Shown here one piece after another: positions 2,815-63,682 of a DNA stretch of 64,000 nt. The notes beneath the pieces are model-generated. The model made no database searches. It saw only the letters and a list, made by a program, of their open reading frames with translations, and was not told the origin of the DNA. The DNA is from a virus (Duplodnaviria; Caudoviricetes), in IMG/VR virus record IMGVR_UViG_3300020375_000001, positions 64,001 through 128,000 of that record. One strand, written 5' to 3'. Numbering within the stretch: the stretch's first letter is position 1; the number at the start of each line of letters is the position of its first letter. The position numbers and the translations under genes were made by a program.

Positions 2815-2897
2815 TCTTATCTTCCTTTTATTTTGCAATAAGATGCTTTCGGGTTATTTGATTCGTTACGATAATATATGGTTATTAATCGCACGAG

Positions 2898-4433
2898 TTA
2901 AGTTGACTTCGTTGTGTTCCCGTGGTCACCACGGTAGTGCTTGTCCAAATCCATCAAGAAACGTGCACACTCCGGACGGAAGTTGCTTGGGATAATCAAA
3001 GGAGTACCTTCAGCAGTTTCGTCTGTTTCTAATGGCGTGGGTAAGTTATTTTCAATATTAACTGAATTAACTTTATCCAACAGGTCATCAATCCAATCGT
3101 TACCGACGTTATTTTTCGACGTCAGTGGTTTACCGCTTGTGCGACGATAATGTGGATAGATTTCAGCCAGTATCTCCAAGTCCGCACGAGTTACGCGAGA
3201 CTTAGCATGTCCACTACCACCCAGTGAGATTTCACCTGGGTCGCGGGCTAAGAACTTCGCACTGCACAAAGCAGCAAGAACATCAAAACCACGAGTGTGT
3301 AAGATAGCTTGGCAGATACCTAGCAGATGACACATTGGTACATGAGTGATGTGGTATTGGGCAGAAGGTGCAATTACCTCTGAGACCATGTTACCGCAAA
3401 TCATGTAGTGTACTTCATTCACCACCAAGTTAGAGCGTACTAGGTTATCAATACAAGCCTTTACTAACTTGATATCGATGCCGGGTTGTAGTCGCTCTGC
3501 CATTGTTTCCCAGTGCCTGATGACGTAATGCTCAATGTCACGGGGTACACGTTTGGACAACTCTTGGCGGACACGGGTATTTTCCATGATAGACAAATTG
3601 TCTTCTTCACGGGCATTATCCGTAGGACGATGTTTATCACCTATGCGCTCGAATGATTTATCCATCTGGTCCATCTTGGATTTCAGATAGTTGTACATCT
3701 TACGCACAATGTGTTCAGTACCATCGTTAGGGTCAATCAGTAATACCTTACGAATCACCGCAAATGACAACAGCCACTCAGGTAACTCTTCAGTACTCAA
3801 TGAACCGTAAACTGCTGATGTAGTCTTACGGCTGTACGTAGAGTTGACGGTCACGTATACATTTAAACGCTCCCATTCAGGCCGCGCCATAATGCGTGGG
3901 TCTATCAAATCCATCGTACGGTACTCTTTATAAGCAGTACCAACATCTTTCGCTATCGCCGCCATATACTCACCAATAATTGGCAACAACGGCTTTAGCA
4001 CCATCCCCAAACGAACCAAGCCTTTATACTCGCTTCGAATGTAAGTTAGTTCACGAGGACCATCGTCTTCACTGTAGTGCTCATTAACTTCACCTGCACT
4101 AATGTCCAAGTGCATTTCTAGCCACCGGAACATTTTATCTACATCAATGGTGTCATACAGGCGAGCAATGTGTTGTTTTAGTTTTACAGTGAGCCGCTCA
4201 CGTGAACGTACGGAATCGAAGGACTCACGAATGTCATCGTAGGTCTCAAGTATTTCTTGCTGGTCTTCTTTACTCAAGGACGCTAAATAACGATTCAGTG
4301 GCCCCATGCTTCTTGCAGGGTCATTGACATTACTTCGGTCAAAGTTCTGTGTGTTGAATGAAATGGTCGTATCATCCAACTCTACTTTAACAGAAGTGAA
4401 TCTGTTGTTAGCAGGGTATATTTTTAATGGCAT
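2898..4433 (-). CDS. Non-virion RNA polymerase promoter-specificity subunit (phiKZ gp68-like)
   Basis: ~511 aa helical protein between the ChmC-like and PicA-like genes; GGAG SD before ATG 4433; early-type promoter upstream. Confidence 0.65.
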   Translation of the reverse strand: MPLKIYPANNRFTSVKVELDDTTISFNTQNFDRSNVNDPARSMGPLNRYLASLSKEDQQEILETYDDIRESFDSVRSRERLTVKLKQHIARLYDTIDVDKMFRWLEMHLDISAGEVNEHYSEDDGPRELTYIRSEYKGLVRLGMVLKPLLPIIGEYMAAIAKDVGTAYKEYRTMDLIDPRIMARPEWERLNVYVTVNSTYSRKTTSAVYGSLSTEELPEWLLSFAVIRKVLLIDPNDGTEHIVRKMYNYLKSKMDQMDKSFERIGDKHRPTDNAREEDNLSIMENTRVRQELSKRVPRDIEHYVIRHWETMAERLQPGIDIKLVKACIDNLVRSNLVVNEVHYMICGNMVSEVIAPSAQYHITHVPMCHLLGICQAILHTRGFDVLAALCSAKFLARDPGEISLGGSGHAKSRVTRADLEILAEIYPHYRRTSGKPLTSKNNVGNDWIDDLLDKVNSVNIENNLPTPLETDETAEGTPLIIPSNFRPECARFLMDLDKHYRGDHGNTTKST

Positions 4434-4476: not shown

Positions 4477-4494
4477 ATAATATATCTTTGAAAA
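4477..4494 (-). promoter_or_regulatory. Putative early-type promoter (TTTTCAAAGATATATTAT)
   Basis: Recurs at 15918, 28409, 19781, 2871 and 63597; resembles phiKZ early TATATTAC. Confidence 0.6.
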
Positions 4495-15917: not shown

Positions 15918-15935
15918 ATAATATATCTCTGAAAA
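15918..15935 (-). promoter_or_regulatory. Putative early-type promoter (TTTTCAGAGATATATTAT)
   Basis: 44 nt upstream of the nvRNAP beta-prime N start. Confidence 0.6.
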
Positions 15936-17809: not shown

Positions 17810-19705
17810 TTACCAGGTGGTACGTGCGTTCATGTTTTGGTATTGGTTACCACGACCGCCGAACTGGTTCTGCTGGTTGAACATACCAGAGTGCTGGTTA
17901 CCTTGAGAGGCAAAGCGCTGGTAGTTAGTTGCAGGACGAGTACCGGTAGTCATGTCTTGGTAGATACCTTCTGGACGTACATTTGCACCGGCTGCTGCAC
18001 AAGCTGCTGCCAGAGTCATGATGAAGTCTGAAGTGAAGTCCACACGACGAGAGTAACCAGATACGAATACTGAGCCTTCGCCCAGCAGACCACGCAGGAT
18101 GTTCAGACGACGCTGTAAGCGGAAGTCTTCTGGAACGTTAGTTGCAGTGAACGTATCCACGTAATCAGTAACTACTTGCAGGTCGCTTCCGCCTTGCAGG
18201 TTCAGCATTGCCAAGTAGTCGATTTCGCGCAGGTCTTTCTTGTTGCCTTCTGCGTCAACGTAGTAACCGTTGTGGATACGGGTTACGTCGCCAGTAAACA
18301 ACTGCTTACCTTTAAACATGTTGCTGAAGTTACCGTTAGTCAGCGTGTCCGCTGCATTCACGATTGCTTCAATCGCTTTAGGGTTACCACAGGCAGCATC
18401 GATGAAGATGTGCTGTACCCAGCTCATTGGACCGGCTTCTGCGATATCCATAGAGTATACCATGTTAGGGTGTACTGCTACGCCAAGCAATTGAAGCAGA
18501 GTCTGAGGAGTGAAGTCTGCTGATTTAGTATCAACTTCCACATCCGCCAGTGCTGGACACTCGTACTTAACAGCACCGATATCGTGCATGTCAGTACCTT
18601 TGATGTTGTAGTTAGGCAGGAACGCACGAGCCCAGTTGTGGTCTTCATCAAGTACCGCAGCTGATGCCAGGCCTTGCAGTTGAAGTTCCAGGCTTACTGA
18701 GTCCAGACCGTGAGTGATACCAGTCATGATGAAACGAGGCAGGTAACATTGAGTCGCCGGTGCAGCTTGTTGTCCCCAAGGACCTTGCTGTTGTGGTTGA
18801 CCCATAGGCTGACCAAATACGTTTTGCTGCGAAGGCGGCGCTACGTAGATAAGGTCCATGTAACCAGTTACTTCAGAAATCATCAGCTGTTGCTGACCCC
18901 AGCCTTCATCGTGACCACCTTGGTTAGAGGTAGCTTTCATAGCAACTTGAATGTCGCTACGTACGATTTCGCCAACACCAGTTTCAGTGCTAGTAGCCAT
19001 GAAGTCCAGACGGGCAGATACGGTTTCGTTCTGCGGGTCCCACAGTGCAACAGTGTACTTCTCTTCGATGCCACCCAGTACACGGTCAAGCAGACCGATG
19101 TTAGAGTTGCTTACGTCGAATACGACATTGTGCAGACGTGGCTCGTCTTCGTGGCTCAGGCCGCGAGGGATAACAATCAAACCGGCTTCATGTAAAGTAA
19201 CACCTGCATCAAAGTGACCAGACAGTACTTCCTGAACAATTGCCCACAGGCGGTCAGATTGGATATCACCAGGTACACGCTCAACTTCAACGTTAGTGCC
19301 GTTGATGTTATTTTGGCGCGGTGCCAGTGGTTCGCCAGATTCTTCCAGTACCAGGGTAGATACTGCAACGGTGTTCTCAATTTGAGAGCACGCCAGAATC
19401 AGAGAGAATGGTAAGCCGTAACCATCTTTCTCAACGGCGAAGAATTTGATTTCGTCAGCGCCTTCTTTCTTCAGGATTTCCTGGAAAGCTTCTTGGTAAG
19501 CTGCAATGTTCTTACCAGTACCCTGACGGGAGATTGAACGACGGATACGTGCGTTAGCACCGATGATGCCAGAACGTACCTTTTGTTGACCACCTGGGCC
19601 ACGACCTTCAGTGCTCTGAGTAGCTTGCTCAGTTTCACCCGCTTTCTTGAAAGCAGCTTCCATTGCACTTTGACCGCTTTGTTGCTTGTTGTCTTTAATT
19701 GACAT
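17810..19705 (-). CDS. chmA: Chimallin, major phage nuclear shell protein
   Basis: 631 aa (typical chimallin length); flexible N- and C-termini; between DNA polymerase and nvRNAP beta-prime N as in phiKZ gp54; strongly biased codon usage. Confidence 0.88.
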   Translation of the reverse strand: MSIKDNKQQSGQSAMEAAFKKAGETEQATQSTEGRGPGGQQKVRSGIIGANARIRRSISRQGTGKNIAAYQEAFQEILKKEGADEIKFFAVEKDGYGLPFSLILACSQIENTVAVSTLVLEESGEPLAPRQNNINGTNVEVERVPGDIQSDRLWAIVQEVLSGHFDAGVTLHEAGLIVIPRGLSHEDEPRLHNVVFDVSNSNIGLLDRVLGGIEEKYTVALWDPQNETVSARLDFMATSTETGVGEIVRSDIQVAMKATSNQGGHDEGWGQQQLMISEVTGYMDLIYVAPPSQQNVFGQPMGQPQQQGPWGQQAAPATQCYLPRFIMTGITHGLDSVSLELQLQGLASAAVLDEDHNWARAFLPNYNIKGTDMHDIGAVKYECPALADVEVDTKSADFTPQTLLQLLGVAVHPNMVYSMDIAEAGPMSWVQHIFIDAACGNPKAIEAIVNAADTLTNGNFSNMFKGKQLFTGDVTRIHNGYYVDAEGNKKDLREIDYLAMLNLQGGSDLQVVTDYVDTFTATNVPEDFRLQRRLNILRGLLGEGSVFVSGYSRRVDFTSDFIMTLAAACAAAGANVRPEGIYQDMTTGTRPATNYQRFASQGNQHSGMFNQQNQFGGRGNQYQNMNARTTW

Positions 19706-23994: not shown

Positions 23995-24042
23995 TTTCTC
24001 CTTTTATATTTAAACGGCATAACTAGGGAGGTAAGTACCTCC

Positions 24043-24280: not shown

Positions 24281-24694
24281 TTATACCATCTTAGCGTCCA
24301 CTAGTGTCCAACCGGCAGCCGCAATGTGATTACGGAGTCGGGTTAAATCGGTTGAGCTGATATTTTGGATTCTAACTACCGCAGTGCTGGAATCGCGTTG
24401 TTCAATTGTCGTAGGATTAATCCATGGGATACCTACGGCCGTAAATTGCCCATTCGGCAGCTTAACCTTAATGTAATAGTACTGAGTAGGGTCGTCGGGT
24501 GCGGTACCCTGTGCAAGCATTGGATAGATATTGCGATGAAGCGTATATGGGTCTATCAATGCCTTAGCAGAGTCGGCATCTAAACTGCCCACTACTTTAA
24601 CGTTGTCAAACTTAGTTGGTAGTACAGCCTTCACGTTTTCAAATACGCTGAAGCTAACTACGTCCCCAAGTTTTATACCGGGAATTACTTCCAT
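24281..24694 (-). CDS. Conserved Chimalliviridae protein (gp49-like, SH3-like)
   Basis: HRNIYPML...PDDPTQYYY...GIPWI pattern recalled from phiKZ-like core genes. Confidence 0.6.
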   Translation of the reverse strand: MEVIPGIKLGDVVSFSVFENVKAVLPTKFDNVKVVGSLDADSAKALIDPYTLHRNIYPMLAQGTAPDDPTQYYYIKVKLPNGQFTAVGIPWINPTTIEQRDSSTAVVRIQNISSTDLTRLRNHIAAAGWTLVDAKMV

Positions 24695-24696
24695 TG

Positions 24697-24978
24697 CTAC
24701 ATAACCTTAATCATTAGGGATTTACATTCGTCTATAGCCTCAAGTCCAGCCACAGAGAAGAAATCTAGTTTAACACCATACGATGAAAGAGTATCCAGTA
24801 GCAATTCTAGTAAATCTAAAAATGCTGGATGCATCTCTTCCACCGGTTTCTCCATTTCCTTTCTAAACACAGCCGATAGAATATCAATGGGTTCTGGTAC
24901 GTCATCTATTTGGAATTCCCGATAGATTCTGTCCATGTAGTACGACAACCGCAGAGGTTGGACAAGTACTACTTTCAT
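24697..24978 (-). CDS. Small acidic protein, array member
   Basis: 93 aa, GGAGG SD. Confidence 0.65.
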   Translation of the reverse strand: MKVVLVQPLRLSYYMDRIYREFQIDDVPEPIDILSAVFRKEMEKPVEEMHPAFLDLLELLLDTLSSYGVKLDFFSVAGLEAIDECKSLMIKVM

Positions 24979-24987
24979 ACAACCTCC

Positions 24988-25395
24988 TTAGTTCATAACT
25001 TCCACTATTACATCTCCGGACGGTAGCATCTCAATCACGTACAATGTAGGTAGGTTCCTTTCAGGGTCGGTATTTAAAGCACCGAGTCCTATCCGTAACA
25101 TTATTCGATTGGCACGCTGCGCTAACTCACAAAGGTCATCGCTCAGGTTTGGTATATCTGGAATGGGGGTATGTCCAGCAGAGATACCAGCGTACTCTTC
25201 TTCCAATCCCAATAGATGATTATTAACAGTGTCGTAGGGTTCATAGAAATTGTTAGGGTGAACTACTTGCGCAGCATCTATAATGATGTTGACAAATACC
25301 TCTGGGTCGATTTCCAAAAGCCCTGACCTGTTCATAAGGTCTGTTACCAATGTAGAAAATTCTGCACTAGGTAACATAGCACGTTCTTTTGCCAT
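24988..25395 (-). CDS. Small acidic protein, paralog of 25405..25812
   Basis: 135 aa; MAKERAMLP... and ...GDVIVEV align with neighbour. Confidence 0.7.
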   Translation of the reverse strand: MAKERAMLPSAEFSTLVTDLMNRSGLLEIDPEVFVNIIIDAAQVVHPNNFYEPYDTVNNHLLGLEEEYAGISAGHTPIPDIPNLSDDLCELAQRANRIMLRIGLGALNTDPERNLPTLYVIEMLPSGDVIVEVMN

Positions 25396-25404
25396 GTTGT
25401 TCTC

Positions 25405-25812
25405 CTAGCCACAGATTTCTACAACCAAATCTCCTTGATGGGACATGTCCAGTATAGTAATACATGGCCAATCTTTATTTGGGTCATTGTTAAAACGGTC
25501 TAACTCCAAAGCCACCATCGTACGATAAAGCTTTACCGCCAAGTTACTTAGCGTGTCGTGGAGATTAGGTACATCAGCTAGAGGAACAGCGTCCATAGTA
25601 ACCAAGCCTATTTCAGTACCTAAGGCAAGTAGGTTATTGTGAATAACGTCATTCATCATCGCCCAGTTGGTATCATTAAAGGCAAGTGCTGCATCTAACA
25701 ATACCATGGTTAGTTTTTCGTAATCTACTTCTGGGATATCACACTCAACAATAAGTTCAGCCAGTTCCCTTGAGATATCACGTGTTGGTAGAATAGCGTG
25801 TTCTTTCTTCAT
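25405..25812 (-). CDS. Small acidic protein, paralog of 24988..25395
   Basis: 135 aa; MKKEHAILP... and ...GDLVVEI. Confidence 0.7.
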   Translation of the reverse strand: MKKEHAILPTRDISRELAELIVECDIPEVDYEKLTMVLLDAALAFNDTNWAMMNDVIHNNLLALGTEIGLVTMDAVPLADVPNLHDTLSNLAVKLYRTMVALELDRFNNDPNKDWPCITILDMSHQGDLVVEICG

Positions 25813-25815
25813 AAG

Positions 25816-26196
25816 CTACTCCAGTAAAAAGAATGCACTGTTTCCTTTCAACTCAGAAAAGTAAGCTTGACGTTTAGGGTACGCCCGTGCTACTTCCCCT
25901 AGGTTCTTGTTAATGAATCGAATGGTATCATTAAGCAAGGCAACCAGTGCGTTGTAATCGTTACCATCAGCAAACTCCATACTCTCTGCAATATCGTAAG
26001 ACATCTCCGATACCGCATCCACATCATCGCTGTGAGGCGCTAATGCGGATAGCAATTGAAGTATGTCTTCGAACGATAAACCAAAGGATGTATCTGTGGA
26101 GTATACTGGGCTACGGTGGTGTTCCAACTCGTACCGTAAACGGTCAGTGTTGATAATAACCACAATCGGTTTATTAGTGGCCATAGATATATACAT
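25816..26196 (-). CDS. Small acidic protein, array member
   Basis: 126 aa. Confidence 0.65.
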   Translation of the reverse strand: MYISMATNKPIVVIINTDRLRYELEHHRSPVYSTDTSFGLSFEDILQLLSALAPHSDDVDAVSEMSYDIAESMEFADGNDYNALVALLNDTIRFINKNLGEVARAYPKRQAYFSELKGNSAFFLLE

Positions 26197-26551
26197 CTCC
26201 GTTTAATAGTTCTACACTTATCTCTATACCGCAGAGGAACTCATCCAGTTGGTAGAAAGAAAGCAAATATCGGGCATAGGTAAAACCTACGTGGGCAATA
26301 AGTTCATCTTCTTCAGAACTCATACCCACATCCCAGAAATTATACATTTCCATTCGGTTATACCACATCCTTCTAGCCAAATCTTCATTTGCTCTGCGCA
26401 GTGACGAGAACCCAACTTCAGCCATTAGGTAAATGGTGCTAAGGATAAAGTCTTGTCTCGTCATTTGCACAAAATCTTCTATCAGGATGTTTTCACCCTG
26501 CAAAGCCCGTTCAACGCTATCGCCAGGAATAACGCAAACTACTTTGCTCAT
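26174..26551 (-). CDS. Small acidic protein, array member
   Basis: 125 aa, ends NGDVYIYGH. Confidence 0.65.
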   Translation of the reverse strand: MSKVVCVIPGDSVERALQGENILIEDFVQMTRQDFILSTIYLMAEVGFSSLRRANEDLARRMWYNRMEMYNFWDVGMSSEEDELIAHVGFTYARYLLSFYQLDEFLCGIEISVELLNGDVYIYGH

Positions 26552-26562
26552 TTTGTCATACC

Positions 26563-27045
26563 TCAGTAACTGTAAGCAGAACGCATCCGCTCAGGAACGT
26601 AACCACCCGCCTCTTCGAACATAGCCTCTTCTTTCAAGTGACGCTCATACTCGAGTGCGCGACGGTCACCCCGGTCGATAATCTTTAGGTTGTACACAGC
26701 TCCCGCAGCGTCAACGTCCAGAAATTCAACCTCGTACAGATGATGGTCACGAACAGGACCTAATGCATTAGCCACCATTTCGGTTAGCAGATTACGCATT
26801 ACTTTACGTGCCCGTTCGATGTTATCTGTTGGAAAGCCCATGTCACCAAACTGAGCCTCTTCATATTCTTTCTCTTCCCAATAGCTCATGGGATTCATTG
26901 GTTCAAGGATAAGACGTAACTCCGCCTCAACCCAAGGTCGCCAATTAACCATGTCTAATATAAGACTGTCGTGAATACTCAAGGCTTTCTTAGTTTGGCT
27001 AATCGCTGGGCCTAAATCAAAGATTGCTCCAAGTGCGTTTGCCAT
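26563..27045 (-). CDS. Acidic hypothetical protein, array member
   Basis: 160 aa. Confidence 0.65.
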   Translation of the reverse strand: MANALGAIFDLGPAISQTKKALSIHDSLILDMVNWRPWVEAELRLILEPMNPMSYWEEKEYEEAQFGDMGFPTDNIERARKVMRNLLTEMVANALGPVRDHHLYEVEFLDVDAAGAVYNLKIIDRGDRRALEYERHLKEEAMFEEAGGYVPERMRSAYSY

Positions 27046-27050
27046 ATTAC

Positions 27051-27578
27051 CTACCTGAAATCTGAAATGCCGTCTTCTTGGACTGTACCAGTAATAGAGA
27101 AACTTACCAGCTTTTCAATAGATGGAATCTCTGTCGAGTTAGTATGTTTCATGTAGCGATACAATACTTCCGCGTAGTTACCTTGGTAGATAACAAACAG
27201 ACCACCATTTCTAAAGAACACGTCCCACATGCCAAAAGGATGACGCTTAAAAATATTCGTCATTAACATTTCAGCGTAGTCCATGACATATGTCGAATCG
27301 CCTGTCCACTTCTTACCGTGTAGTTTTTCCAATACACGAATGGAGACGTATTTGGAACCAGCATCGTATTCCACGTTGTTGGCAATTACATCTTGGAAAC
27401 TATCGACGATAAATGTCTCAAGACCTTCTTCCGACTCAGGCAGTTCAAACCCCTCATCAGCAAAATTTGCCCTGGCACAGTTCTTCAACGTTGTTCCGTC
27501 CAGTATAAAACAACCAGACATGATAACGTCTTTAGAATCCCGCACCATTTTGTAGATTGGGTATTTCAACTTCAACAT
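27051..27578 (-). CDS. Hypothetical protein, array member
   Basis: 175 aa, GGAG SD. Confidence 0.65.
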   Translation of the reverse strand: MLKLKYPIYKMVRDSKDVIMSGCFILDGTTLKNCARANFADEGFELPESEEGLETFIVDSFQDVIANNVEYDAGSKYVSIRVLEKLHGKKWTGDSTYVMDYAEMLMTNIFKRHPFGMWDVFFRNGGLFVIYQGNYAEVLYRYMKHTNSTEIPSIEKLVSFSITGTVQEDGISDFR

Positions 27579-27946
27579 GTTATCTCCAATAATGACTCGC
27601 GTATTTTTATTTTAATGTTTGCCACTTGCACTTCACCAAGTAAAGTTCGCATGTGACGCTCCCGTTTATACAGTTCTTTGTCTACACGTCCTGTCAGTTC
27701 CGTTGGTACAGAATGTAGGTAACGGTATAGACTATCAGGGATGGGTGCACGTGAATTGTGTTGTGGTAAGTGTGCAGCAAACATCAGCGAGAATTCTCTT
27801 AGACGTTGGTGGATGATAAGCTCTACAATATTATCCTGTAAATGTTGATACTCTGGGTACTCCGTTAGTATCTCTTTTACATAGGTAGTGACTGCTCTTA
27901 TTTCCCATCCGGCATCTAAGATAACAAGACGTTGTCTCTTACTCAT
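27572..27946 (-). CDS. Hypothetical protein, array member
   Basis: 124 aa, GGGAGAGG SD; promoter at 27988-28015. Confidence 0.65.
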   Translation of the reverse strand: MSKRQRLVILDAGWEIRAVTTYVKEILTEYPEYQHLQDNIVELIIHQRLREFSLMFAAHLPQHNSRAPIPDSLYRYLHSVPTELTGRVDKELYKRERHMRTLLGEVQVANIKIKIRESLLEITC

Positions 27947-27987
27947 TTTGCCTCTCCCGTTTATATAGAGGATATAGATTCCTCCCC

Positions 27988-28015
27988 CTATACTAAAAGC
28001 ATTCTATGTAAATTT
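27988..28015 (-). promoter_or_regulatory. Putative middle-type promoter (AATTTACAT-N13-TATAG)
   Basis: Heads the small-acidic-protein array. Confidence 0.55.
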
Positions 28016-28124
28016 TATACGGCCTGTATACCGCTGTAATCAATTAGGATATACTGGGGATACGGTAGTACTATTTAATGTTTAATCTACCCTCTACGTG
28101 CTTCTCTGGAAAGATTTAAAGGGG

Positions 28125-28376
28125 CTAGTCCGTTGTGTGGACGTATACCTTATCGTCAGGGGTAAACACCGGTAACGTTGCTGTAAACGTAGTAGCTACT
28201 TGGAGTGTCCCATATACTTTATTCAGATGGGCAATTATCCCTTCGGGCATGTCCCCGCTTCCCAACACAATGTAGATGTGTTCTGGGTCGCAGAGCTTTC
28301 TGGTTTGTAAGAAGTCTCCCTTCTCAGATTTCCCCACCACCTCGATATCGTCAGATACAACTATAATAAGTTTCAT
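28125..28376 (-). CDS. Small hypothetical protein
   Basis: 83 aa, AAGG SD, early-type promoter at 28409-28427. Confidence 0.65.
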   Translation of the reverse strand: MKLIIVVSDDIEVVGKSEKGDFLQTRKLCDPEHIYIVLGSGDMPEGIIAHLNKVYGTLQVATTFTATLPVFTPDDKVYVHTTD

Positions 28377-28408
28377 TACCTTTCCTTTTATTTGTTTACT
28401 TCACCAAG

Positions 28409-28427
28409 ATAATATATCTTTATAAAA
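28409..28427 (-). promoter_or_regulatory. Putative early-type promoter (TTTTATAAAGATATATTAT)
   Basis: Upstream of 28125..28376. Confidence 0.55.
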
Positions 28428-28437
28428 AAATAGGTAA

Positions 28438-28465
28438 GACGGCATAAGCGACGGCATCGGCCGTC
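28438..28465 (-). terminator. Hairpin plus CTTATGCCGT ending the post-phuZ non-coding region
   Basis: GACGGC/GCCGTC stem. Confidence 0.6.
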
Positions 28466-28685
28466 ACATACTTAGATGTTCTAGTCAATGTTCTAATGGA
28501 TATTGACCACGGGGGAATTATCGCTTATGCACTTTCTTATCACCCTACTAGAGGTAATGCTTACAAATCCATTGGGGCGTAATGTAAGACATCTCTCGTT
28601 CGAAGCAGTTAGTCCTTGTGGACCACTATAACCAATTCCCATTTAAGGGAGCTTTGTGTTTGCCAGATTGTAATTTTTTAAAAAC

Positions 28686-28940
28686 CGTTAGAACTGGTCC
28701 GAGGCGGGCGCTCCTAATTAAAGGAACCCCCGACTCTTTCCAGCCTGGTTCAACCCCGGCAGGGTACCGCTAGCTTACATGGGCACTTTCGTCGTTGGTG
28801 AAGTGTGCCTCTGCCGTCAGCGCACGGCTCAGAGTCATGGTGTAAGGCGAAATTGAAAAACTCCCACACCAGAGAATCAGCTGCGTCCCCGCCGGGGTAA
28901 CCACAGCAACGCCGACGAGAACCTTAAAAGTACACCCGTC
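28686..28940 (-). ncRNA. Putative structured non-coding RNA of unknown family
   Basis: ORF-free; ~57% GC (138/240 hand-counted over 28681-28920); six stem-loops and a possible pseudoknot; strand inferred from upstream TATAGTATG and the downstream minus-strand terminator. Confidence 0.6.
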
Positions 28941-28970
28941 TACATACTATAGGTATTTTTAACTTAACTT

Positions 28971-29960
28971 TTATAAAATCAAGTCAGTGTCTGCATCGAT
29001 TTGGTCGGTGCCCGACAATACTCTACGTGTATTAACGTTGCGCGATTCAGTAGCACGACTGTAATTGTCTACTTCTTCTTGGCGGTATTTGATTAAATCA
29101 GCAATACCATCTACCGAGATGATGTAGTGTAGTTCAGTCAGCCCATCTTCCAGACCATCCAAACGATAACCAATACAAGAGTATTCAGGCATCAGTTCAG
29201 GAGCCGGTGCATCTTTATCAACCAGTAGCGTCGCCACTGAGATAGGTGCGTCGATTTGCTTTGCTACTTCCACCGAATCACAAATCTCAAGTACTGACAG
29301 TTGAGCCGGTACTGAAGTTGAGTGATTATAGAAAGCCCAGTTACGGACATCACGTTGGTCAAGCTCATCGTTCTGCTGTGAACACAGAGCAGCCATGGCT
29401 TGGATTGTTGCATTACAAGTTGCGTCTACCTGACTACGTCGAGTAGTTGCACTGTTGTGGTGGTAACTGATGATAGTTGGTTTATCCAACGAGTCACCAA
29501 TAGCCGCCAGAGACTTCAGGGTGTTCAGACTGTTTAGTGCAGTGATAGATGACTCAGAAGAACCTACTGCAATAGCGATGGCAGGAATACCACGCTTCAA
29601 CAGTTCTTTAACCAGAAGAGGCCCTACTACAGAACCCGTACCGCCAGAGGTAGAGAAGACAACAATGTTGAAACCAGCAGGTGGTTGTTTCTGCAATGCC
29701 GCACGAATGTTTTCGTTAATTACCGCAGCGTTGTCACGGCGAACTTTACCCGAACCCTCACCTTCATCTGTAGCTAAGAAGAACGGAACGTCATTCTCTT
29801 TGTGCTCAGCGGTATAGTTAGACGTTGAGGAGTCAATCAGACCCACTTCAATGTCGGAGTAACCGCGACCAGATGATTTGTTGGCGAATGGGGATACGAT
29901 GTTGATACCGCAGCCACCACAACCGTAAAGACGGATAGTGCTTTTGTTAGAATCACTCAT
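28971..29960 (-). CDS. phuZ: PhuZ phage tubulin
   Basis: YGCGGCGINI, GEGSGKVR, STSGGTGS tubulin signature, NDELDQRD T7 loop; 329 aa. Confidence 0.95.
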   Translation of the reverse strand: MSDSNKSTIRLYGCGGCGINIVSPFANKSSGRGYSDIEVGLIDSSTSNYTAEHKENDVPFFLATDEGEGSGKVRRDNAAVINENIRAALQKQPPAGFNIVVFSTSGGTGSVVGPLLVKELLKRGIPAIAIAVGSSESSITALNSLNTLKSLAAIGDSLDKPTIISYHHNSATTRRSQVDATCNATIQAMAALCSQQNDELDQRDVRNWAFYNHSTSVPAQLSVLEICDSVEVAKQIDAPISVATLLVDKDAPAPELMPEYSCIGYRLDGLEDGLTELHYIISVDGIADLIKYRQEEVDNYSRATESRNVNTRRVLSGTDQIDADTDLIL

Positions 29961-29977
29961 AGTTGATTTCCTTCAGT

Positions 29978-30676
29978 TTACGTGTATTGGGAATAATCAA
30001 TGTTAACGTAGTTACCCTTTTTATCTACAGGATAGCGCATAACCGTGTTAACGTGAATTTGGTGACTGGCTCGTTTCTTGGCAGCTTCAATTTGCTGATA
30101 CCACCAATCACGAGGTCGTACAGTTACGTGGGCATTTCGACCATCAGGTAAGAATGTTACCGCCGGACCAAGATGAATTGTAACATGCAGTACCTTAGTT
30201 GTTAGATTAAACAGTTCATCTAAGAACCAAGGAATGTCTTGTGCTGGAATATGTTCTAACACATCCGTGCACACCACCATCTCCCCAGGGAAGGTAGGAT
30301 ACTCAGAGAGCTCCTCGATTCCAGGGTCGTACATTACAACGTAAGGACGGCCAAGGTAATCATAAACAGAGTCATGAACCGGACTCATTTTATTACCTTT
30401 GTCGTCTTTCTGCACAATCGTTTTGTCGATATATGGCTTTACGAAGAACGCATCGGGGTTACCACAACCAAAGTTAATAAGAGAACGGCAATCGTTCTTA
30501 TCCATTAACCGTTTAATAACAGGAGCTTCTTTACCATACTCCCCGTTAGCAAACATCTCTTTTGGAGCGCGTTTGGTTCCGTTGGCTAAAGACCCACCTT
30601 CAGTTGAGTAGAGCAGGCGATACTGCTCTGCGAGTGAGAGGTAGTCCTCGCTCGGATTTTGTTTTGTGTATTTCAT
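29978..30676 (-). CDS. Class I SAM-dependent methyltransferase
   Basis: LINFGCG motif I, YDPG, VVCTDVLEHIP, NAHVTVRPRDWW; type often found in glycan loci. Confidence 0.8.
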   Translation of the reverse strand: MKYTKQNPSEDYLSLAEQYRLLYSTEGGSLANGTKRAPKEMFANGEYGKEAPVIKRLMDKNDCRSLINFGCGNPDAFFVKPYIDKTIVQKDDKGNKMSPVHDSVYDYLGRPYVVMYDPGIEELSEYPTFPGEMVVCTDVLEHIPAQDIPWFLDELFNLTTKVLHVTIHLGPAVTFLPDGRNAHVTVRPRDWWYQQIEAAKKRASHQIHVNTVMRYPVDKKGNYVNIDYSQYT

Positions 30677-30704
30677 TTACCTAAACTCCGCCATGTGGCT
30701 AGAC

Positions 30705-30731
30705 ATAAATAACTATAGAAGTGTAAAAATT
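30705..30731 (-). promoter_or_regulatory. Putative middle-type promoter (TTTTTACAC-N13-TATG)
   Basis: Upstream of the methyltransferase-phuZ pair. Confidence 0.5.
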
Positions 30732-30769
30732 ATATCGTCAAAAGAAAGGGACTAAGTGCCCCTAACTTT

Positions 30770-31477
30770 TTACAATTTACTATAGCTGGTAAACTGCAGT
30801 TCAGGGAATTGCTTCTCTTCACTTGTGTCGGCCAGGTACGTATTTAACGCACGACGGTCATGCATCAACTTAGCAATCTTTCCATCGGTTGTTTTCTTTG
30901 GCAACAGCCTGTCTTCATCATTACTGATAAAGCGTTCTTCTAACAAGACGTCCAATAAGAACTCTTGTACTGCATTTAGATAACGTCGAGCTTTACGTTC
31001 ATCGTCAGAGACCAGTGGCTCAACCTGTAATTCCATCCACGCTACTTTAGAACTGGGTGGGGGATTAACAAGCATGAAACAACGAGTACGGTCACGATAG
31101 AATGCAAAGTCACCAATCTCAGCATCTTCTAAATGCTGTAGGTCGGATACGTCCTCTATAGGCCACTGTGAGACAGAGACAGGGATACCACCAGGGGTTA
31201 CACCATCTCCTACCCAGAAGCGTCTGTCATCAGTCGTAAAGAGCGGTTCACCAAGGTCAGGAACAAAGGTAGGACGTGCCTCATTAAGACCAACTCGCAT
31301 CCGTATAGGTATTACTTTAGCGGTCTTTTTCTCAAGGGGAAGCTGATTCAGAGGGGCTGGTAAGCTTTTCTTCTGAGATACATCCCCTTTCTTGTCGCCC
31401 TGTTTGATAGCAGCCCTCGGACTTACATTACGGCGCGACCTTTGTGGTTTGTTGTTTATTTCACCAGACATTTTCAA
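30770..31477 (-). CDS. Tail-fibre-associated protein with Mtd_N-like domain
   Basis: GEPLFTTDDRRFWVGDGVTPGG motif; basic disordered N-terminus; chaperone-like C-terminus. Confidence 0.6.
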   Translation of the reverse strand: MKMSGEINNKPQRSRRNVSPRAAIKQGDKKGDVSQKKSLPAPLNQLPLEKKTAKVIPIRMRVGLNEARPTFVPDLGEPLFTTDDRRFWVGDGVTPGGIPVSVSQWPIEDVSDLQHLEDAEIGDFAFYRDRTRCFMLVNPPPSSKVAWMELQVEPLVSDDERKARRYLNAVQEFLLDVLLEERFISNDEDRLLPKKTTDGKIAKLMHDRRALNTYLADTSEEKQFPELQFTSYSKL

Positions 31478-31503
31478 CTTCCTCTAATTAATTTGGAGTT
31501 AAC

Positions 31504-32319
31504 ATGGGTGCTATAGAAAAAGCAATTAGCGAGGTCCGTTTTGCTATTCCTTACGAAATACTAAACGAGACTTTTAAGATAGACACCGGTTATAGTGCCA
31601 CTCGCACTGCTGGTATTAAAACTTCTCTGGAGTCACGCATCCGAGAAGAAATCCTCGATAAGAAAGTCCTTGAGGATTGTAACCTCATGGGTGGCCATGA
31701 AGTTATTGTTCCTTTAGCGGGGCTTTCCTTACGGTACGCTCAGGACAGAACCTTTGTGGTTACAATTCCTAAGAGTCGTACTGAAGGACTCAGCATTACT
31801 TCCGTACTTAGTGTTGCCCAAGCACCTGATGGTTGGATGGGTAGCGTGTACACTAATGCAAACGCAATGAATAGCTTCTCCAATCGAATGGATGCTATCA
31901 TGCAAGGAAGTATTGGTGGCGGTAACATGGCTCGTATAGAGGCCCGAGTAAGACTCATCGGTGATAACGTGGTATACGTTAAAATGATTGATGAGACTAT
32001 GTCGGACTTGTTCTTACGTTGCCGTGTAGGGTCAGACGAAAACATGTCTCGTCTTCCTGCCGCCTATTGGTTGGACTTCTCCAAACTTGTCATCTTGGCT
32101 ACCAAGGCCCACATCTTCAGAGAACTTGCCATCCGGATGGATGAAGGTCAGCTGTCGGGCGGTCTTAATCTTGGTCGCTTTAAAGAGACGGTTGATGAGT
32201 ATGCTGATGCTCACCAAATGTACAATGAGTTCATCCATGATAGTTGGCCACGTATAGCGGCCTTGACTGATGAGGAACGACATAGTCGGGTAATCCAACA
32301 TCAATTTGGAAGACCATAA
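31504..32319 (+). CDS. Conserved phiKZ-like virion structural protein
   Basis: 271 aa, plus strand late-type orientation; resemblance recalled, not searched. Confidence 0.5.
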   Translation: MGAIEKAISEVRFAIPYEILNETFKIDTGYSATRTAGIKTSLESRIREEILDKKVLEDCNLMGGHEVIVPLAGLSLRYAQDRTFVVTIPKSRTEGLSITSVLSVAQAPDGWMGSVYTNANAMNSFSNRMDAIMQGSIGGGNMARIEARVRLIGDNVVYVKMIDETMSDLFLRCRVGSDENMSRLPAAYWLDFSKLVILATKAHIFRELAIRMDEGQLSGGLNLGRFKETVDEYADAHQMYNEFIHDSWPRIAALTDEERHSRVIQHQFGRP

Positions 32320-32517
32320 CTTGTCGCAGTGATATGGGAGTTCCTAAGGGGACTCCCTGTCTACATATGCCTTAAAACTGATTAGACATACATAAGGCCC
32401 TCTCCTCCTAGCGTCGGTTCGGCTAGGTTACTCGCTTTCGCTCGTAGAATCAATTCAACTCTCGTAGACAAGCTACTCGACTTTTTATATTCAAATCGTT
32501 AGAGACTTGAGTAAAAA

Positions 32518-32805
32518 TTATTTACTGAATTGATGCCAGAAGATTTTGAGCTTACCTATGAAGCACGCCTCGCGATAACGACTCAGAACGTACTCGTAAT
32601 GTTTACCCATCTGTGCCATTTCCAGCCCCAGTTGTTTCTTAGACAACTCGAGCATTCGTGGTTCTTTGAACTTGACTGCACAGCGGAGCTTGTACTCTAG
32701 CAGTAGCACCTGCTCGCCCAGTCGGTTCTCAGTTAGACGGTTAAACCTTTTGAATAAACTTCTGAGAGCAGAGGAGAGTTCCCTGTCGGATAATGCATTC
32801 GACAT
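32518..32805 (-). CDS. Hypothetical protein
   Basis: 95 aa, GAGGG SD. Confidence 0.55.
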   Translation of the reverse strand: MSNALSDRELSSALRSLFKRFNRLTENRLGEQVLLLEYKLRCAVKFKEPRMLELSKKQLGLEMAQMGKHYEYVLSRYREACFIGKLKIFWHQFSK

Positions 32806-32924
32806 GATAGTGAACCCTCGACTTTGTTATTCATAACAAAAGTTTAATTTTACATATACAGGTTATTTTAAGATAACGTGTGTAGGTTTTTTACACCTTA
32901 CTGAAAAAGAAATTGGAGATTGCA

Positions 32925-33278
32925 ATGAGTAATGCACAGCCTGTGGCTAACCAACCAATGACCCAAGAACAAATGGAACAAGCCTTACGCGAAATGCAGG
33001 CAACTGTACAGCAGCAAGCAGAAACCATCAATAAATTACAAGGCTCTATCCGTAACCTTGGTGGTAACCTGAAGTTCCTACGTGACTTGGTAAATGAATG
33101 TGTTCACTTAACTGAGCAAACGTCTGGTATTGTTGTTGAGCACGTAAGCACACTGGACAAACGTTTAGATAGCGTAGGTACCATCTTCACTGACAAAATC
33201 AAACGTCAGCTTAAAGAGCTTGATGAAAGCGTATTGGTGGATGCAGTAATTACGCAGGTAGATAAAGACGAGGAGTAA
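32925..33278 (+). CDS. Coiled-coil protein
   Basis: Heptad-rich; GGAG SD before ATG 32925; first gene of the GT operon. Confidence 0.65.
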   Translation: MSNAQPVANQPMTQEQMEQALREMQATVQQQAETINKLQGSIRNLGGNLKFLRDLVNECVHLTEQTSGIVVEHVSTLDKRLDSVGTIFTDKIKRQLKELDESVLVDAVITQVDKDEE

Positions 33279-33282
33279 GTCC

Positions 33283-34149
33283 ATGGGTCAGTTACTATAC
33301 GAGAAAACCGTTAAGTTCGATAGTAAGGCCGGTAAGCTTGCTCACTCTGGTTTCCTATCTCGTTCAGATGCAATCACTGAATCGAATAAGATATACAAGT
33401 ACTTGGAAAAGCGTTGTGCTGAACTGAGACGCAAATTGTCCTATGACCTTTCCTACAATGGTTTCCCCCGTGACTTGATTGTTACCGAAGCCTTTGGTGG
33501 GCATGGTTGTTTGGTTATTCACCCTGCCGACGATGACTTTACAATTAAATTGTTAAAAGGTTGCGGTAAAGGTGAACGCGACTTTGACTTCCTGAGCGTA
33601 AAGAAAGATAAGTACTCTCTGTTTGATGCAGAACATCCAGCGAAGAAAGTGGTTATCCTGCCGGGTACTAACTTACTGTGTCGTATGTCACCGAATGTTA
33701 TTAAAGGGATGAACAAGCCAGGGGTTTACTTTAAGCCTCACCCAATCACCACTGAGTTCTACATTCGTGAAATCGAATCGTTCGTTGGCCGTGATAAACT
33801 TATCCATAAGCTGGCCTCAGGTGCTAAGGTACTTGAAAATGCGGATGAGGTTTGGGTATCGCGTTCTACGGAACTTGGTCTGTACGCTAAGCTGGACGGT
33901 AAAAAGGTACACACGTACAAAATCAATTACCAGAACAAAGGTAGCTATTTTGGACTGTATGACCAGATTGACCGGTTAGAAGAAGTACTTTCAACTGCAC
34001 GCTCTGGCGTCATCTTCCCAACCGATGATTACGAAGCGCAAATTGACGAGTACCTCGCCTATTACGAAGAAAGTCTTGCTGGGTATAAGCCCAAGGCTAA
34101 GCCACGCGTAAACCAGAAGAACAAGCGTAAAAGAAAGAAGAGGAAGTAA
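33283..34149 (+). CDS. GT-B glycosyltransferase, KpsS/KpsC (Capsule_synth)-like, candidate CMP-Kdo-dependent transferase
   Basis: FKPHP (KxHP) and ADEVWVSRSTELGLYAKLDGKKV, matching the DxVxTxxSTxGxEAxxxGKxV pattern; K/R-rich tail. Confidence 0.65.
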   Translation: MGQLLYEKTVKFDSKAGKLAHSGFLSRSDAITESNKIYKYLEKRCAELRRKLSYDLSYNGFPRDLIVTEAFGGHGCLVIHPADDDFTIKLLKGCGKGERDFDFLSVKKDKYSLFDAEHPAKKVVILPGTNLLCRMSPNVIKGMNKPGVYFKPHPITTEFYIREIESFVGRDKLIHKLASGAKVLENADEVWVSRSTELGLYAKLDGKKVHTYKINYQNKGSYFGLYDQIDRLEEVLSTARSGVIFPTDDYEAQIDEYLAYYEESLAGYKPKAKPRVNQKNKRKRKKRK

Positions 34150-35157: not shown

Positions 35158-35200
35158 GACGGCATAATTAGTAGGGGCCATTGCCCCTACTTTATGCTGC
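35158..35200. terminator. Bidirectional terminator between the GT operon and a convergent gene
   Basis: GTAGGGG/CCCCTAC stem with TTATGC motif on both strands. Confidence 0.7.
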
Positions 35201-41349: not shown

Positions 41350-41633
41350 ACAAGCTAACTCCAGAGGGTTGGTAAACCTTATTATTCCTTTGTCCTTTAC
41401 CTATACCGCATGAGTAACGAATATCCTGTTAGTTACCGCTATTCATACGGCTCTTGTGACCTGTACAGCTATTACCAGTCGTGAGGGTTTTTACACAGCA
41501 ACGTTACCACTCTCCCCTCATGCAATTAAAGAGCTCGTTATTTTTTGGAACGACGGCATAAAGGGCGGATAGCCCGCCCCTTACGTGTAGCATAATTACA
41601 ATCTGTTAAGACGAGGTTTGCCCTAGTGTCTGG

Positions 41634-58597: not shown

Positions 58598-58790
58598 GAC
58601 GGCATAAAGCAGGGCAACTGCCCTACAAGACAAGACGAAAAAAAAAAGGGGCCCAAGGGAAGGGCCCCTAACGGGAGTGGAGGTCGCGAACCTCCTCGTG
58701 GACGCTACTGTGTCGTGCGAACCGCTTGAATAAAAAAGGAGAGAGGCACTAGTCCAGCTCTCCAAGGGGAACACTCAGAAAACACTCAAA
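58598..58790 (-). repeat. Stack of four hairpins, related to 50341-50460
   Basis: GGGCCC stem, GGGAGTGGAGGTC, TTATGCCGTC, AACACTCA direct repeat. Confidence 0.55.
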
Positions 58791-63563: not shown

Positions 63564-63682
63564 TCCTGTTATTAGTTATACTAGTAGTACATCTTTATAA
63601 TATATTTTTAAAATAATTTAGTATTAATGGCAAAAGTAAATAGGGCCCCGACCAAAATCGGGTACCCTATTGTTTTCTGACG

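What the first reader, a model, noticed from the sequence alone, without database searches (positions are those of the whole stretch)
28438..28945. Unassigned GC-rich structured ncRNA downstream of phuZ
Seen: 594 nt without a >=60-aa ORF in a densely coding genome. The segment 28681-28920 is ~57% GC and folds into six helices: 28880-28907, 28838-28871, 28809-28834, 28782-28809, 28743-28760 and 28694-28743. On the minus strand the 5' segment UCGUCG-gcg-UUG (28907-28918) is complementary to the loop CAACGACGA (28789-28797) apart from a 3-nt bulge, suggesting a long-range pseudoknot. A TATAGTATG element lies at ~28943-28951 and a hairpin plus TTATGCCGT terminator at 28438-28465. The AT-richer part 28470-28680 has weaker stems and a TAGAACAT direct repeat. 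Inference: a ~250 or ~500 nt phage RNA (ribozyme, decoy for RNA-targeting defence or toxin, RNAP/nucleus-associated scaffold, or phuZ 3'-UTR regulator). Strand is inferred.
Basis: partly seen in the sequence, partly recalled or inferred. Interest (0 to 1): 0.75.

Follow-up and report, generated by a model that had tools for sequence, protein, structure and literature searches.

The report
New abundant structured RNA after phuZ
The gene-free stretch after the tubulin gene phuZ of this uncultured marine nucleus-forming jumbo phage encodes a real, roughly 500-base folded non-coding RNA that matches no described RNA family and is found in ocean RNA samples at far higher depth than its neighbouring genes; what it does is still unknown.

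Summary
Window 28377-28970 has no conserved ORF. It contains the most GC-rich 250 nt of the 208-kb phage genome.

The minus strand encodes an RNA of about 503 nt (28943 to about 28441). It starts at a phiKZ-late-type TATG motif, inside the invariant TATAGTATG. It ends at a phiKZ-type terminator: a GC hairpin followed by TTATGCCGT.

Seven other uncultured phages (PhuZ 71-84% identical) carry a homologue at the same place, one copy per genome in the three whole records searched. Two covariance models built on five sequences found the three untrained ones. In those models 24 of 39 and 20 of 34 base pairs show compensatory changes, and 86-90% of cells pair against 30-51% in slid controls.

Rfam gives no hit. 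Contigs from marine metatranscriptomes of three studies hold the RNA. In one run a 489-nt contig (28447-28935) has depth 59, while phuZ has about 4.

The other two are the two strands of one long-range helix. The proposed pseudoknot and the direct repeat are not conserved.

Function is unknown. My best guess is a long-lived trans-acting scaffold or decoy RNA. Earlier notes of this scan report other, sequence-unrelated structured RNAs after phuZ in other jumbo phages.

The parts
28441..28943 (-). The RNA itself, about 503 nt, from the G of TATG to inside the terminator tail
   Evidence: RNA-library contigs cover 28447-28935 (X17) and 28607-28933 (X19). Contigs of X14 and X16 end at 28441 and 28442. 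Homologues of 393-506 nt have the same ends.
28943..28951 (-). TATAGTATG, a promoter-like motif. Its TATG matches the phiKZ late-promoter consensus, whose last G is the start site.
   Evidence: Invariant in all 8 homologues and the only exact copy in the window. The consensus is from PMC4666361. The start site itself is inferred.
28914..28940 (-). P1 hairpin (GACGGG / CUCGUC)
   Evidence: Compensatory changes among homologues, e.g. GACCUG/CAGGUU and GACAAC/GUUGUU.
28899..28913 (-). J1/2: invariant single-stranded word GCGUUGCUGUGGU
   Evidence: Invariant in 7 of 8, with one G-to-A change in L008. No conserved partner was found.
28753..28898 (-). Multibranch 5' domain. Long-range P2 (28887-28898 with 28753-28764) and P2a (28879-28885 with 28768-28775) close over P3 (28838-28871, conserved loop UUCAAUUUCG), P4 (28813-28828) and P5 (28782-28809).
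   Evidence: Model R1 finds the untrained L007 (E 5e-10), L009 (5e-6) and L008 (8e-5). 24 of 39 pairs have changes on both sides, and 89.8% of cells pair against 36-46% when slid.
28691..28751 (-). P6, a long interrupted hairpin
   Evidence: Model R2, helices 1-3: 14 of 23 pairs have changes on both sides.
28663..28675 (-). S1: conserved single-stranded AAUUACAAUCUGG
   Evidence: ACAAUYUG is present in all 8 homologues.
28606..28649 (-). H7 (CCC-UUAAAU-GGG, 28638-28649) and H8 hairpin (28606-28628)
   Evidence: In H8, 5 of 8 pairs have changes on both sides. H7 has one CCC/GGG to CUC/GAG change.
28541..28605 (-). Conserved internal loop CGAAC / UAGUA, between a short closing helix and the variable H9 hairpin
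   Evidence: The single-sequence minimum-energy fold gives this layout in 4 of 7 homologues. The H9 base helix differs in sequence in each. Its likeness to a loop-E/sarcin-ricin module is recalled, not tested.
28532..28540 (-). Purine/A-rich single-stranded tract (consensus CAAAAAGAAAAG in relatives)
   Evidence: Alignment.
28441..28530 (-). 3' subdomain. H10 (28521-28530 pairs with the 3' tail 28442-28451) closes over H11 (28482-28510), H12 (28466-28479) and the terminator hairpin (28450-28465).
   Evidence: H10 is predicted in the minimum-energy fold of 7 of 8 homologues. It has one clean C-G to U-A compensatory pair. 85.7% of cells pair against 27-39% when slid, but there is little variation.
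28439..28447 (-). TTATGCCGT terminator tail, a generic signal of this phage
   Evidence: 6 copies in the window, all on the minus strand and each right after a GC hairpin, where 0.44 are expected. It fits the phiKZ terminator motif ...YTTATKYYGT (PMC10914365).
28971..29960 (-). phuZ (329 aa), upstream and partly co-transcribed
   Evidence: Pfam Tubulin and TubZ_C_2 hits on the protein cluster. One contig bridges 28662-30704 in X14.

Best explanation
It is a gene for a stable, highly folded non-coding RNA of about 500 nt, in a clade of uncultured marine nucleus-forming (chimallin- and PhuZ-encoding) jumbo phages.

Shown:
- The sequence and its fold are conserved and covary in eight phages.
- It is single-copy in each of the three whole records searched.
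- No ORF is conserved.
- RNA libraries hold it as a discrete piece, at much higher depth than the flanking genes.
- Depth drops about 8-fold at its terminator.

Inferred:
- The phage's own non-virion RNA polymerase starts it at the G of an invariant TATG motif. Read-through from the methyltransferase-phuZ operon also makes it.
- Transcription stops at a phiKZ-type terminator.
- The 3' tail is then tucked into a long-range helix (H10). Together with the dense fold, this makes the RNA outlive the mRNAs.
- Its invariant unpaired parts are the surfaces that bind a partner. These are GCGUUGCUGUGGU, the UUCAAUUUCG loop, AAUACAAUCUGG, the CGAAC/UAGUA internal loop and an A-rich tract.

I commit to this reading: it acts in trans as a scaffold or decoy for an RNA-binding protein or RNA of the host or phage, rather than as an antisense regulator of phage genes. 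My split is about 0.93 that it is a real expressed structured ncRNA, and about 0.5 that it works as a trans-acting scaffold or decoy.
For: - Homologues sit at the same place in 7 other phages. Their nucleotide identity is only 47-74%, yet the helices are kept.
- R1: 24 of 39 pairs have compensatory changes, 0 of 500 shuffles reach the observed values, and 89.8% of cells pair against 36-46% when slid.
- R2: 20 of 34 pairs, and 85.9% against 30-51%.
- Sequences not used for training are found at E 5e-10 to 8e-5.
- The sense strand folds better than the antisense strand in 7 of 8 homologues.
- No ORF is conserved.
- Expression: the X17 contig 28447-28935 has depth 59.5, while phuZ pieces have 3.9-4.1. 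In X19 this RNA is the only piece of the 9-kb stretch that was laid. In X14 and X16, depth is 336-470 on the RNA and 33-73 just past the terminator.
- The promoter and terminator motifs match those published for phiKZ.
- Chimallin is present, E 1e-94.
- No complementary target sites for the conserved loops exist in the phage genome. That argues against antisense control of phage genes.
- There is one copy per genome.
Against: - No partner is known and nothing here tests binding.
- Logan contigs cannot give strand, true ends or true levels.
- In study P5, one contig runs from the RNA into phuZ at similar depth. The RNA is therefore at least partly the 3' end of an mRNA, and its excess in X17 and X19 could come from slower decay alone.
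- The family is narrow: 8 sequences, with PhuZ 71% identical or more. Models find nothing in relatives with PhuZ of 41-65% identity or in cultured phages.
- Covariation in the 3' subdomain is thin.
Confidence: 0.6

Rival explanations
1. It is a cis-acting structured 3' UTR of the methyltransferase-phuZ operon. It protects or regulates that mRNA. The abundant 500-nt species is only its nuclease-resistant remnant, or a 3'-UTR-derived fragment without a role of its own.
For: - No terminator lies between the phuZ stop and the RNA.
- In X14 one contig bridges 28662-30704, and in X16 one contig runs from 28530 to beyond 33450, at depths like that of the RNA.
- The place after phuZ is kept even in relatives whose RNA cannot be aligned (L010-L014, L025).
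- Serratia phage Moabite has a terminator 272-325 nt after phuZ.
Against: - A plain terminator hairpin is enough for the other five terminators in the window. A 500-nt, three-domain fold with invariant loops is far more than 3'-end protection needs.
- An invariant TATG late-promoter-like motif sits exactly where RNA contigs of two independent studies stop, at 28933 and 28935.
- Depth is about 15-fold higher than over phuZ in X17.
Confidence: 0.22
2. It is a ribozyme or another catalytic or self-processing RNA.
For: Its size, its multibranch architecture and its invariant unpaired nucleotides are typical of large ribozymes.
Against: - No Rfam ribozyme or intron model matches, even at E 10.
- RNA contigs cross the whole molecule without a break apart from a homopolymer variant at 28680.
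- It has no flanking exons and no tandem or circular context.
Confidence: 0.06
3. It is a DNA-level element, such as a replication origin with a primer transcript or a centromere-like site for the tubulin PhuZ (as tubC is for TubZ).
For: It is adjacent to a TubZ-family gene. It is single-copy. Origin transcripts that form R-loops are known in T4 (recalled).
Against: - Compensatory changes that keep G-U pairs on one strand point to RNA.
- There are no iterated repeats; the only repeat is private to the window's copy.
- Cumulative GC skew falls monotonically, with no turn at genome position 92.4-92.9 kb.
- The RNA is present at high depth as a discrete piece.
Confidence: 0.04
4. It holds one or more small protein genes that were missed.
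For: The window has 39-51-aa ORFs in the gap.
Against: ORF positions and frames differ among the homologues, and L003 has no sense ORF of 25 aa or more. Indels are not in multiples of three. The substitution pattern is pairwise-compensatory, not codon-like.
Confidence: 0.03

Closest known systems
GOLLD and ROOL (and OLE): large 'ornate' structured RNAs of bacteria, phages and prophages
   Same: It is several hundred nucleotides long, multibranched and supported by covariation. It is carried by a phage, has no coding capacity and has no assigned biochemical function. It is a single stand-alone gene with its own terminator.
   Different: There is no match to their Rfam models, even at E 10. It is not next to tRNA genes, and the genome has none. 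It is shorter than GOLLD. Homo-oligomer formation, shown for those RNAs by cryo-EM (PMC12286853), was not tested.
Small non-coding RNAs of phiKZ and 201phi2-1 found by Grad-seq and ONT-cappable-seq (PMC8545117, PMC10914365, PMC11512511)
   Same: They also come from nucleus-forming jumbo phages. They include intergenic or UTR-derived species seen next to longer mRNA-like transcripts. They use the same type of terminator motif.
   Different: Those are about 100 to under 250 nt, at other loci (PHIKZ297/298, and upstream of gp182/gp277). None is described after phuZ. This RNA is about 500 nt with three folded domains, and it shows no sequence likeness to cultured phages.
IMES-1 to IMES-4 RNAs (structured RNAs known only from marine sequences and exceptionally abundant in marine metatranscriptomes; recalled, Weinberg 2009)
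   Same: It is marine and uncultured, and it is far more abundant in metatranscriptomes than neighbouring genes.
   Different: The IMES models are in Rfam and give no hit. This RNA has a defined genomic home in a jumbo phage.
Abundant viral nuclear or decoy RNAs such as KSHV PAN (3' end protected by an internal element) or adenovirus VA RNA (recalled; an analogy only)
   Same: It is a virus-made RNA that accumulates to high level. Its 3' tail is predicted to be sequestered by an upstream element (H10).
   Different: There is no homology. The 3'-end protection here is an ordinary helix, supported by one compensatory pair only. Where the RNA sits in the cell is unknown.

Membership tests
Any Rfam 15 family (incl. 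GOLLD, ROOL, OLE, IMES, 6S, tmRNA, RNase P, group I/II introns, small ribozymes) | Score at or above the family's gathering threshold | tested here: not met
   There were 0 matches in the whole window at gathering thresholds. With E up to 10 on 28300-29050, only four chance-level hits appeared, at 10.9-18.3 bits against thresholds of 39-112.
tRNA / tmRNA | Cloverleaf or tRNA-like domain recognised by ARAGORN | tested here: not met
   No gene was found in the window or in the whole 207,748-bp genome.
phiKZ-type intrinsic terminator | GC-rich hairpin directly followed by TTAT-K-Y-Y-G-T (PMC10914365) | tested here: met
   The hairpin at 28465-28450 is followed, after GC, by TTATGCCGT at 28447-28439. 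All six copies in the window follow a hairpin. RNA contigs end at 28441 and 28442, and depth drops about 8-fold there.
phiKZ late (non-virion RNA polymerase) promoter | TATG with transcription starting at its G (PMC4666361) | tested here: inconclusive
   An invariant TATG lies at 28946-28943. RNA contigs of two studies stop 8-10 nt inside it, at 28935 and 28933. Contigs cannot prove a start, and a contig in X14 runs through it.
3'-UTR-derived RNA | Shares its 3' end and terminator with the upstream mRNA and is co-transcribed with it | tested here: met
   There is no terminator between phuZ and the RNA. A contig bridges 28662-30704.
3'-UTR-derived RNA | 5' end made by processing (monophosphate), not by a promoter | not testable with these tools
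   This needs dRNA-seq, cappable-seq or 5' RACE with and without a pyrophosphatase.
Large ornate RNAs (as a kind, not one family) | More than 400 nt, multibranched, many covarying helices, no ORF | tested here: met
Large ornate RNAs (as a kind, not one family) | Forms RNA-only homo-oligomers | not testable with these tools
   This needs native gels, SEC-MALS or cryo-EM.
Base-pairing regulator of phage genes | Conserved unpaired words have complementary sites in phage transcripts | tested here: not met
   With 0-1 mismatches, only the gene's own opposite strand matches. Other counts are at chance level. A 12-nt match at about 41595-41606 is not conserved in G001.

The most novel reading that the evidence does not exclude
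This is the founding member of an undescribed class of long structured RNAs of nucleus-forming phages. The RNA would be made inside the phage nucleus by the phage polymerase and kept next to phuZ across lineages while its sequence turns over quickly. It would serve a step specific to these phages. Candidates are a scaffold or decoy that neutralises a host RNA-binding factor or an RNA-targeting defence, or an RNA part of the nucleus, spindle or packaging machinery. On this reading, the unalignable RNAs at the same place in L010-L014 and L025, and those noted by this scan in other jumbo phages, would be its functional equivalents.
Probability: 0.2. Interest if true: 0.85.

Novelty: new variant of a known kind. 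Interest (0 to 1): 0.64.

Why it matters
Large structured RNAs without a known job are rare. Each one found so far (GOLLD, ROOL, OLE, raiA) has opened new RNA biology.

This one has strong comparative support and direct evidence of high abundance in the sea. It also belongs to the phage group that builds a nucleus and a tubulin spindle, where RNA traffic and RNA-level conflict with the host are open questions.

It gives experimenters a defined 500-nt molecule with mapped ends and a tested secondary structure for about 300 nt. That is enough for probing, cryo-EM and pull-downs.

The work also shows that the phiKZ terminator motif and the TATG start motif reach into a distant marine lineage.

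Tried and rejected
Searches that found nothing:
- Rfam at gathering thresholds and at E 10 gave nothing.
- blastn 'distant' against 50,697 phage records gave no match.
- Exact-pattern scans of IMG/VR found only the two known relatives.
- R1 and R3 with filters off gave no significant hit in L010-L014, L025, L026 or the phuZ loci of LucasX, Eowyn, RP12, Noxifer and Moabite. The motif-level likeness I saw by eye in L011 (a UUCAAUUU loop and a CGUUAC...GGUU word) is therefore unproven.
- No enrichment of complementary target sites for the conserved loops was found in the phage genome.

Leads that turned out to be chance:
- Of the five hits of the metagenome pattern scan, L015, L016 and L017 are chance matches and L018 equals L003. 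Only L019 was new.
- A second copy of CGTTGCTGTG and a 12-nt complement of S1 lie in the intergenic region 41350-41633. These words are not kept in G001, so I judge them chance.

Ideas rejected or left undecided:
- A search for a partner of J1/2 gave no consistent place.
- The P0 helix that RNAalifold draws between TATAGTATGU and GCGUUGCUGUGG never varies. It would lie largely upstream of the inferred start, so I leave it undecided.
- An origin of replication is not supported, because GC skew does not turn here.

Tools and data that gave no answer:
- The methyltransferase-like neighbour could not be typed. Pfam and PDB gave nothing, and only the PHROG 'methyltransferase' matched.
- Parts of the 9-kb stretch without contig cover in X17 and X19 are not evidence of silence.

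Full report
**Setting.** The window is bases 64001-128000 of a 207,748-bp IMG/VR virus record with direct terminal repeats.
- The record encodes chimallin, the nuclear-shell protein (17810-19705, minus; PHROG 4795, E 1.3e-94).
- It encodes a 329-aa PhuZ (28971-29960, minus; Tubulin plus TubZ_C_2).
- It is therefore a nucleus-forming jumbo phage.
- It is far from any isolate. The best tblastn hit of PhuZ in 50,697 phage records is 40% identical (a Xanthomonas phage).
- The runs that hold the stretch are marine metagenomes.

**The observation.**
- A 594-nt gap lies between phuZ and the next gene (28125-28376). It has only short, unconserved ORFs.
- GC rises to 0.59.
- Window 28701-28950 is the most GC-rich 250-nt window of the whole genome, 0.56 against 0.443.
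- The minus strand folds much better than shuffles (z -4.2) and better than the plus strand. The sense strand beats the antisense strand in 7 of 8 homologues.
- Rfam, ARAGORN and blastn against phages give nothing.

**Homologues.**
- I used PhuZ as a handle plus one DNA pattern scan.
- This gave seven further distinct copies of the element directly after phuZ: L006, L002, L019, L003, L007, L009 and L008. Their PhuZ is 71-84% identical.
- They are 393-506 nt long and only 47-74% identical to each other.
- All start with the invariant TATAGTATGU and end with a hairpin plus CUUAUGCCGUC.
- There is one copy per genome in the three DTR-bounded records.

**Ends.**
- TTATGCCGT occurs six times in the window, where 0.44 are expected. 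All copies are on the gene strand, and each follows a GC hairpin.
- It fits the terminator motif reported for phiKZ, a hairpin followed by YTTATKYYGT (PMC10914365). The 3' end is therefore a generic terminator of this phage group, not a special part of the RNA.
- The TATG in TATAGTATG fits the phiKZ late-promoter consensus, whose last G is the start site (PMC4666361).
- That would place the 5' end at 28943 and give an RNA of about 503 nt.

**Expression.** Seven RNA-library runs from four studies hold words of the stretch. I laid four runs from three studies on 24451-33450.
- X17: a single 489-nt contig covers 28447-28935 at depth 59.5. The phuZ pieces have depth 3.9-4.1, and most of the rest has none.
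- X19: the only piece laid is 28607-28933.
- X14 and X16: contigs end at 28441 and 28442, inside the terminator tail. Depth is 336-470 on the RNA and 33-73 on the genes just downstream. That pattern fits RNA, not contaminating DNA, and it fits a working terminator.
- X14 and X16 also have a contig that runs on from the RNA into phuZ and the methyltransferase-like gene at similar depth. Read-through from the operon therefore also makes this sequence.
- Contigs cannot give strand, exact ends or true levels. The start at 28943 and the independent promoter remain inferences.

**Structure** (window coordinates).
- 5' domain:
  - P1 hairpin, 28914-28940.
  - An invariant unpaired GCGUUGCUGUGGU, 28899-28913.
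  - A 12-bp long-range helix, P2 (28887-28898 with 28753-28764), plus P2a. Together they close a junction that carries P3 (loop UUCAAUUUCG), P4 and P5.
- Middle:
  - P6, a long hairpin (28691-28751).
  - Unpaired AAUUACAAUCUGG.
  - H7 and H8.
- 3' part:
  - A conserved internal loop CGAAC/UAGUA, between a short closing helix and the variable H9.
  - An A-rich tract.
  - H10, in which GCAUAAGCGA pairs with the very 3' tail UCGCUUAUGC. H10 closes over H11, H12 and the terminator hairpin.

**Tests of the structure.**
- Model R1 was built on five sequences.
  - It found the untrained L007, L009 and L008 (E 5e-10, 5e-6, 8e-5).
  - On its alignment, 24 of 39 pairs change on both sides.
  - 89.8% of cells pair against 36-46% when partners are slid, and 0 of 500 shuffles reach the observed values.
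- Model R2 covers P6 to H8.
  - It found L008, L009 and L007 (6e-9 to 5e-5).
  - It gives 20 of 34 pairs, and 85.9% against 30-51%.
- The 3' subdomain is more conserved, so it is less informative.
  - 85.7% of cells pair against 27-39% when slid.
  - 4 pairs have double changes. One of them is a clean C-G to U-A swap in H10.

- Two of its six 'helices' (28880-28907 and 28743-28760) are the two strands of P2.
- Its pseudoknot is no better than shuffled loops in any homologue.
- Its TAGAACAT repeat is private to this copy.

**How far the family reaches.**
- The models find nothing in relatives with PhuZ 41-65% identical or in cultured phages.
- Yet those uncultured relatives also have an ORF-free stretch after phuZ with the same punctuation: a TATG-type start and a hairpin-plus-TTATGCCG end.
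  - L010 and L014: about 270 nt.
  - L013: about 440 nt.
  - L012.
  - L025: about 590 nt after a 69-aa ORF, fold z -4.1.
- Among cultured phages the gap is short in LucasX, RP12, Noxifer and Eowyn (57-195 nt). It is 488 nt in Moabite, with an annotated terminator 272-325 nt after phuZ.
- Earlier notes of this scan report sequence-unrelated structured RNAs after phuZ in other jumbo phages. No look-alike of this sequence is on record there.
- These are leads. I did not test whether the RNAs share ancestry.

**Function.**
- Nothing here shows it.
- Against antisense control of phage genes: the conserved unpaired words have no complementary sites in the genome beyond chance.
- Against a DNA role: strand-specific G-U pairs, no iterated repeats, no turn in GC skew, and the discrete abundant RNA.
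- Against coding.
- Against known ribozymes.
- Two readings remain: a trans-acting stable RNA that binds a protein or RNA through its invariant unpaired modules, and a cis-acting 3' UTR whose remnant accumulates.
- I favour the first, for three reasons: the invariant TATG motif at the contig ends, the roughly 15-fold excess over phuZ in X17, and an architecture far richer than end protection needs.
- The tucked-in 3' tail (H10) gives a simple reason for the RNA's long life.

**Verdict.** This is a real, expressed, undescribed structured RNA family of marine nucleus-forming phages. The function is open.

Noticed in passing
window 24014-24022, 28439-28447, 35159-35167, 41553-41561, 50342-50350, 58599-58607 (all minus): TTATGCCGT follows a GC-rich hairpin at every one of six sites, where 0.44 are expected. 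It matches the terminator motif published for phiKZ, so that motif is shared with this very distant marine lineage (PhuZ 40% identical or less to isolates).
   Followed up: partly
window 2871-2879, 4477-4485, 15918-15926, 28409-28417, 63597-63605 (all minus): ATATATTAT recurs five times on the gene strand, 30-50 nt before start codons and after T-rich sequence. One copy sits just after the RNA's terminator. It looks like the early-promoter type of phiKZ-like phages (recalled).
   Followed up: no
window 29978-30676 (-): A 232-aa methyltransferase-like gene (PHROG 24759, E 6e-14; no Pfam or PDB hit) lies directly upstream of phuZ. It is on the same RNA contig as phuZ and the RNA in X14. A gene of this size is kept at this place in the relatives with PhuZ 56% identical or more. 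Its substrate is unknown.
   Followed up: partly
L025 4231-4815 (+): A marine relative with PhuZ 41% identical has a 69-aa ORF after phuZ. An ORF-free, GC-rich stretch of about 590 nt follows, from TACTATG to a hairpin plus T10ATGCCG. It folds with z -4.1. It is a second candidate long RNA and cannot be aligned with this one.
   Followed up: partly
L013 about 3700-3725 (+): The unalignable RNA candidate after phuZ in L013 (PhuZ 65%) carries ACCACAGCAAC near its 3' end. That is the exact reverse complement of the invariant GUUGCUGUGGU of the family studied here. The chance of such an 11-mer match is roughly 2e-4.
   Followed up: no
window 41350-41633 (-): A 285-nt intergenic stretch has a terminator in its first third. 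It contains a second exact CGTTGCTGTG and a 12-nt complement of the RNA's AAUUACAAUCUG. Neither word is kept at the matching place in G001, so I judge this chance.
   Followed up: yes
whole genome G000: ARAGORN finds no tRNA or tmRNA gene in the 207,748-bp genome. That is unusual for a jumbo phage of this size.
   Followed up: partly
window 28606-28628, 28521-28530, 28482-28510: Three CAUAAG-like words are all complementary to the CUUAUG tail that every transcript ending at this phage's terminators should carry. They lie in the H8 loop, the H10 strand and the H11 loop, and are best kept in the relatives. Only the H10 pairing has a compensatory change.
   Followed up: partly
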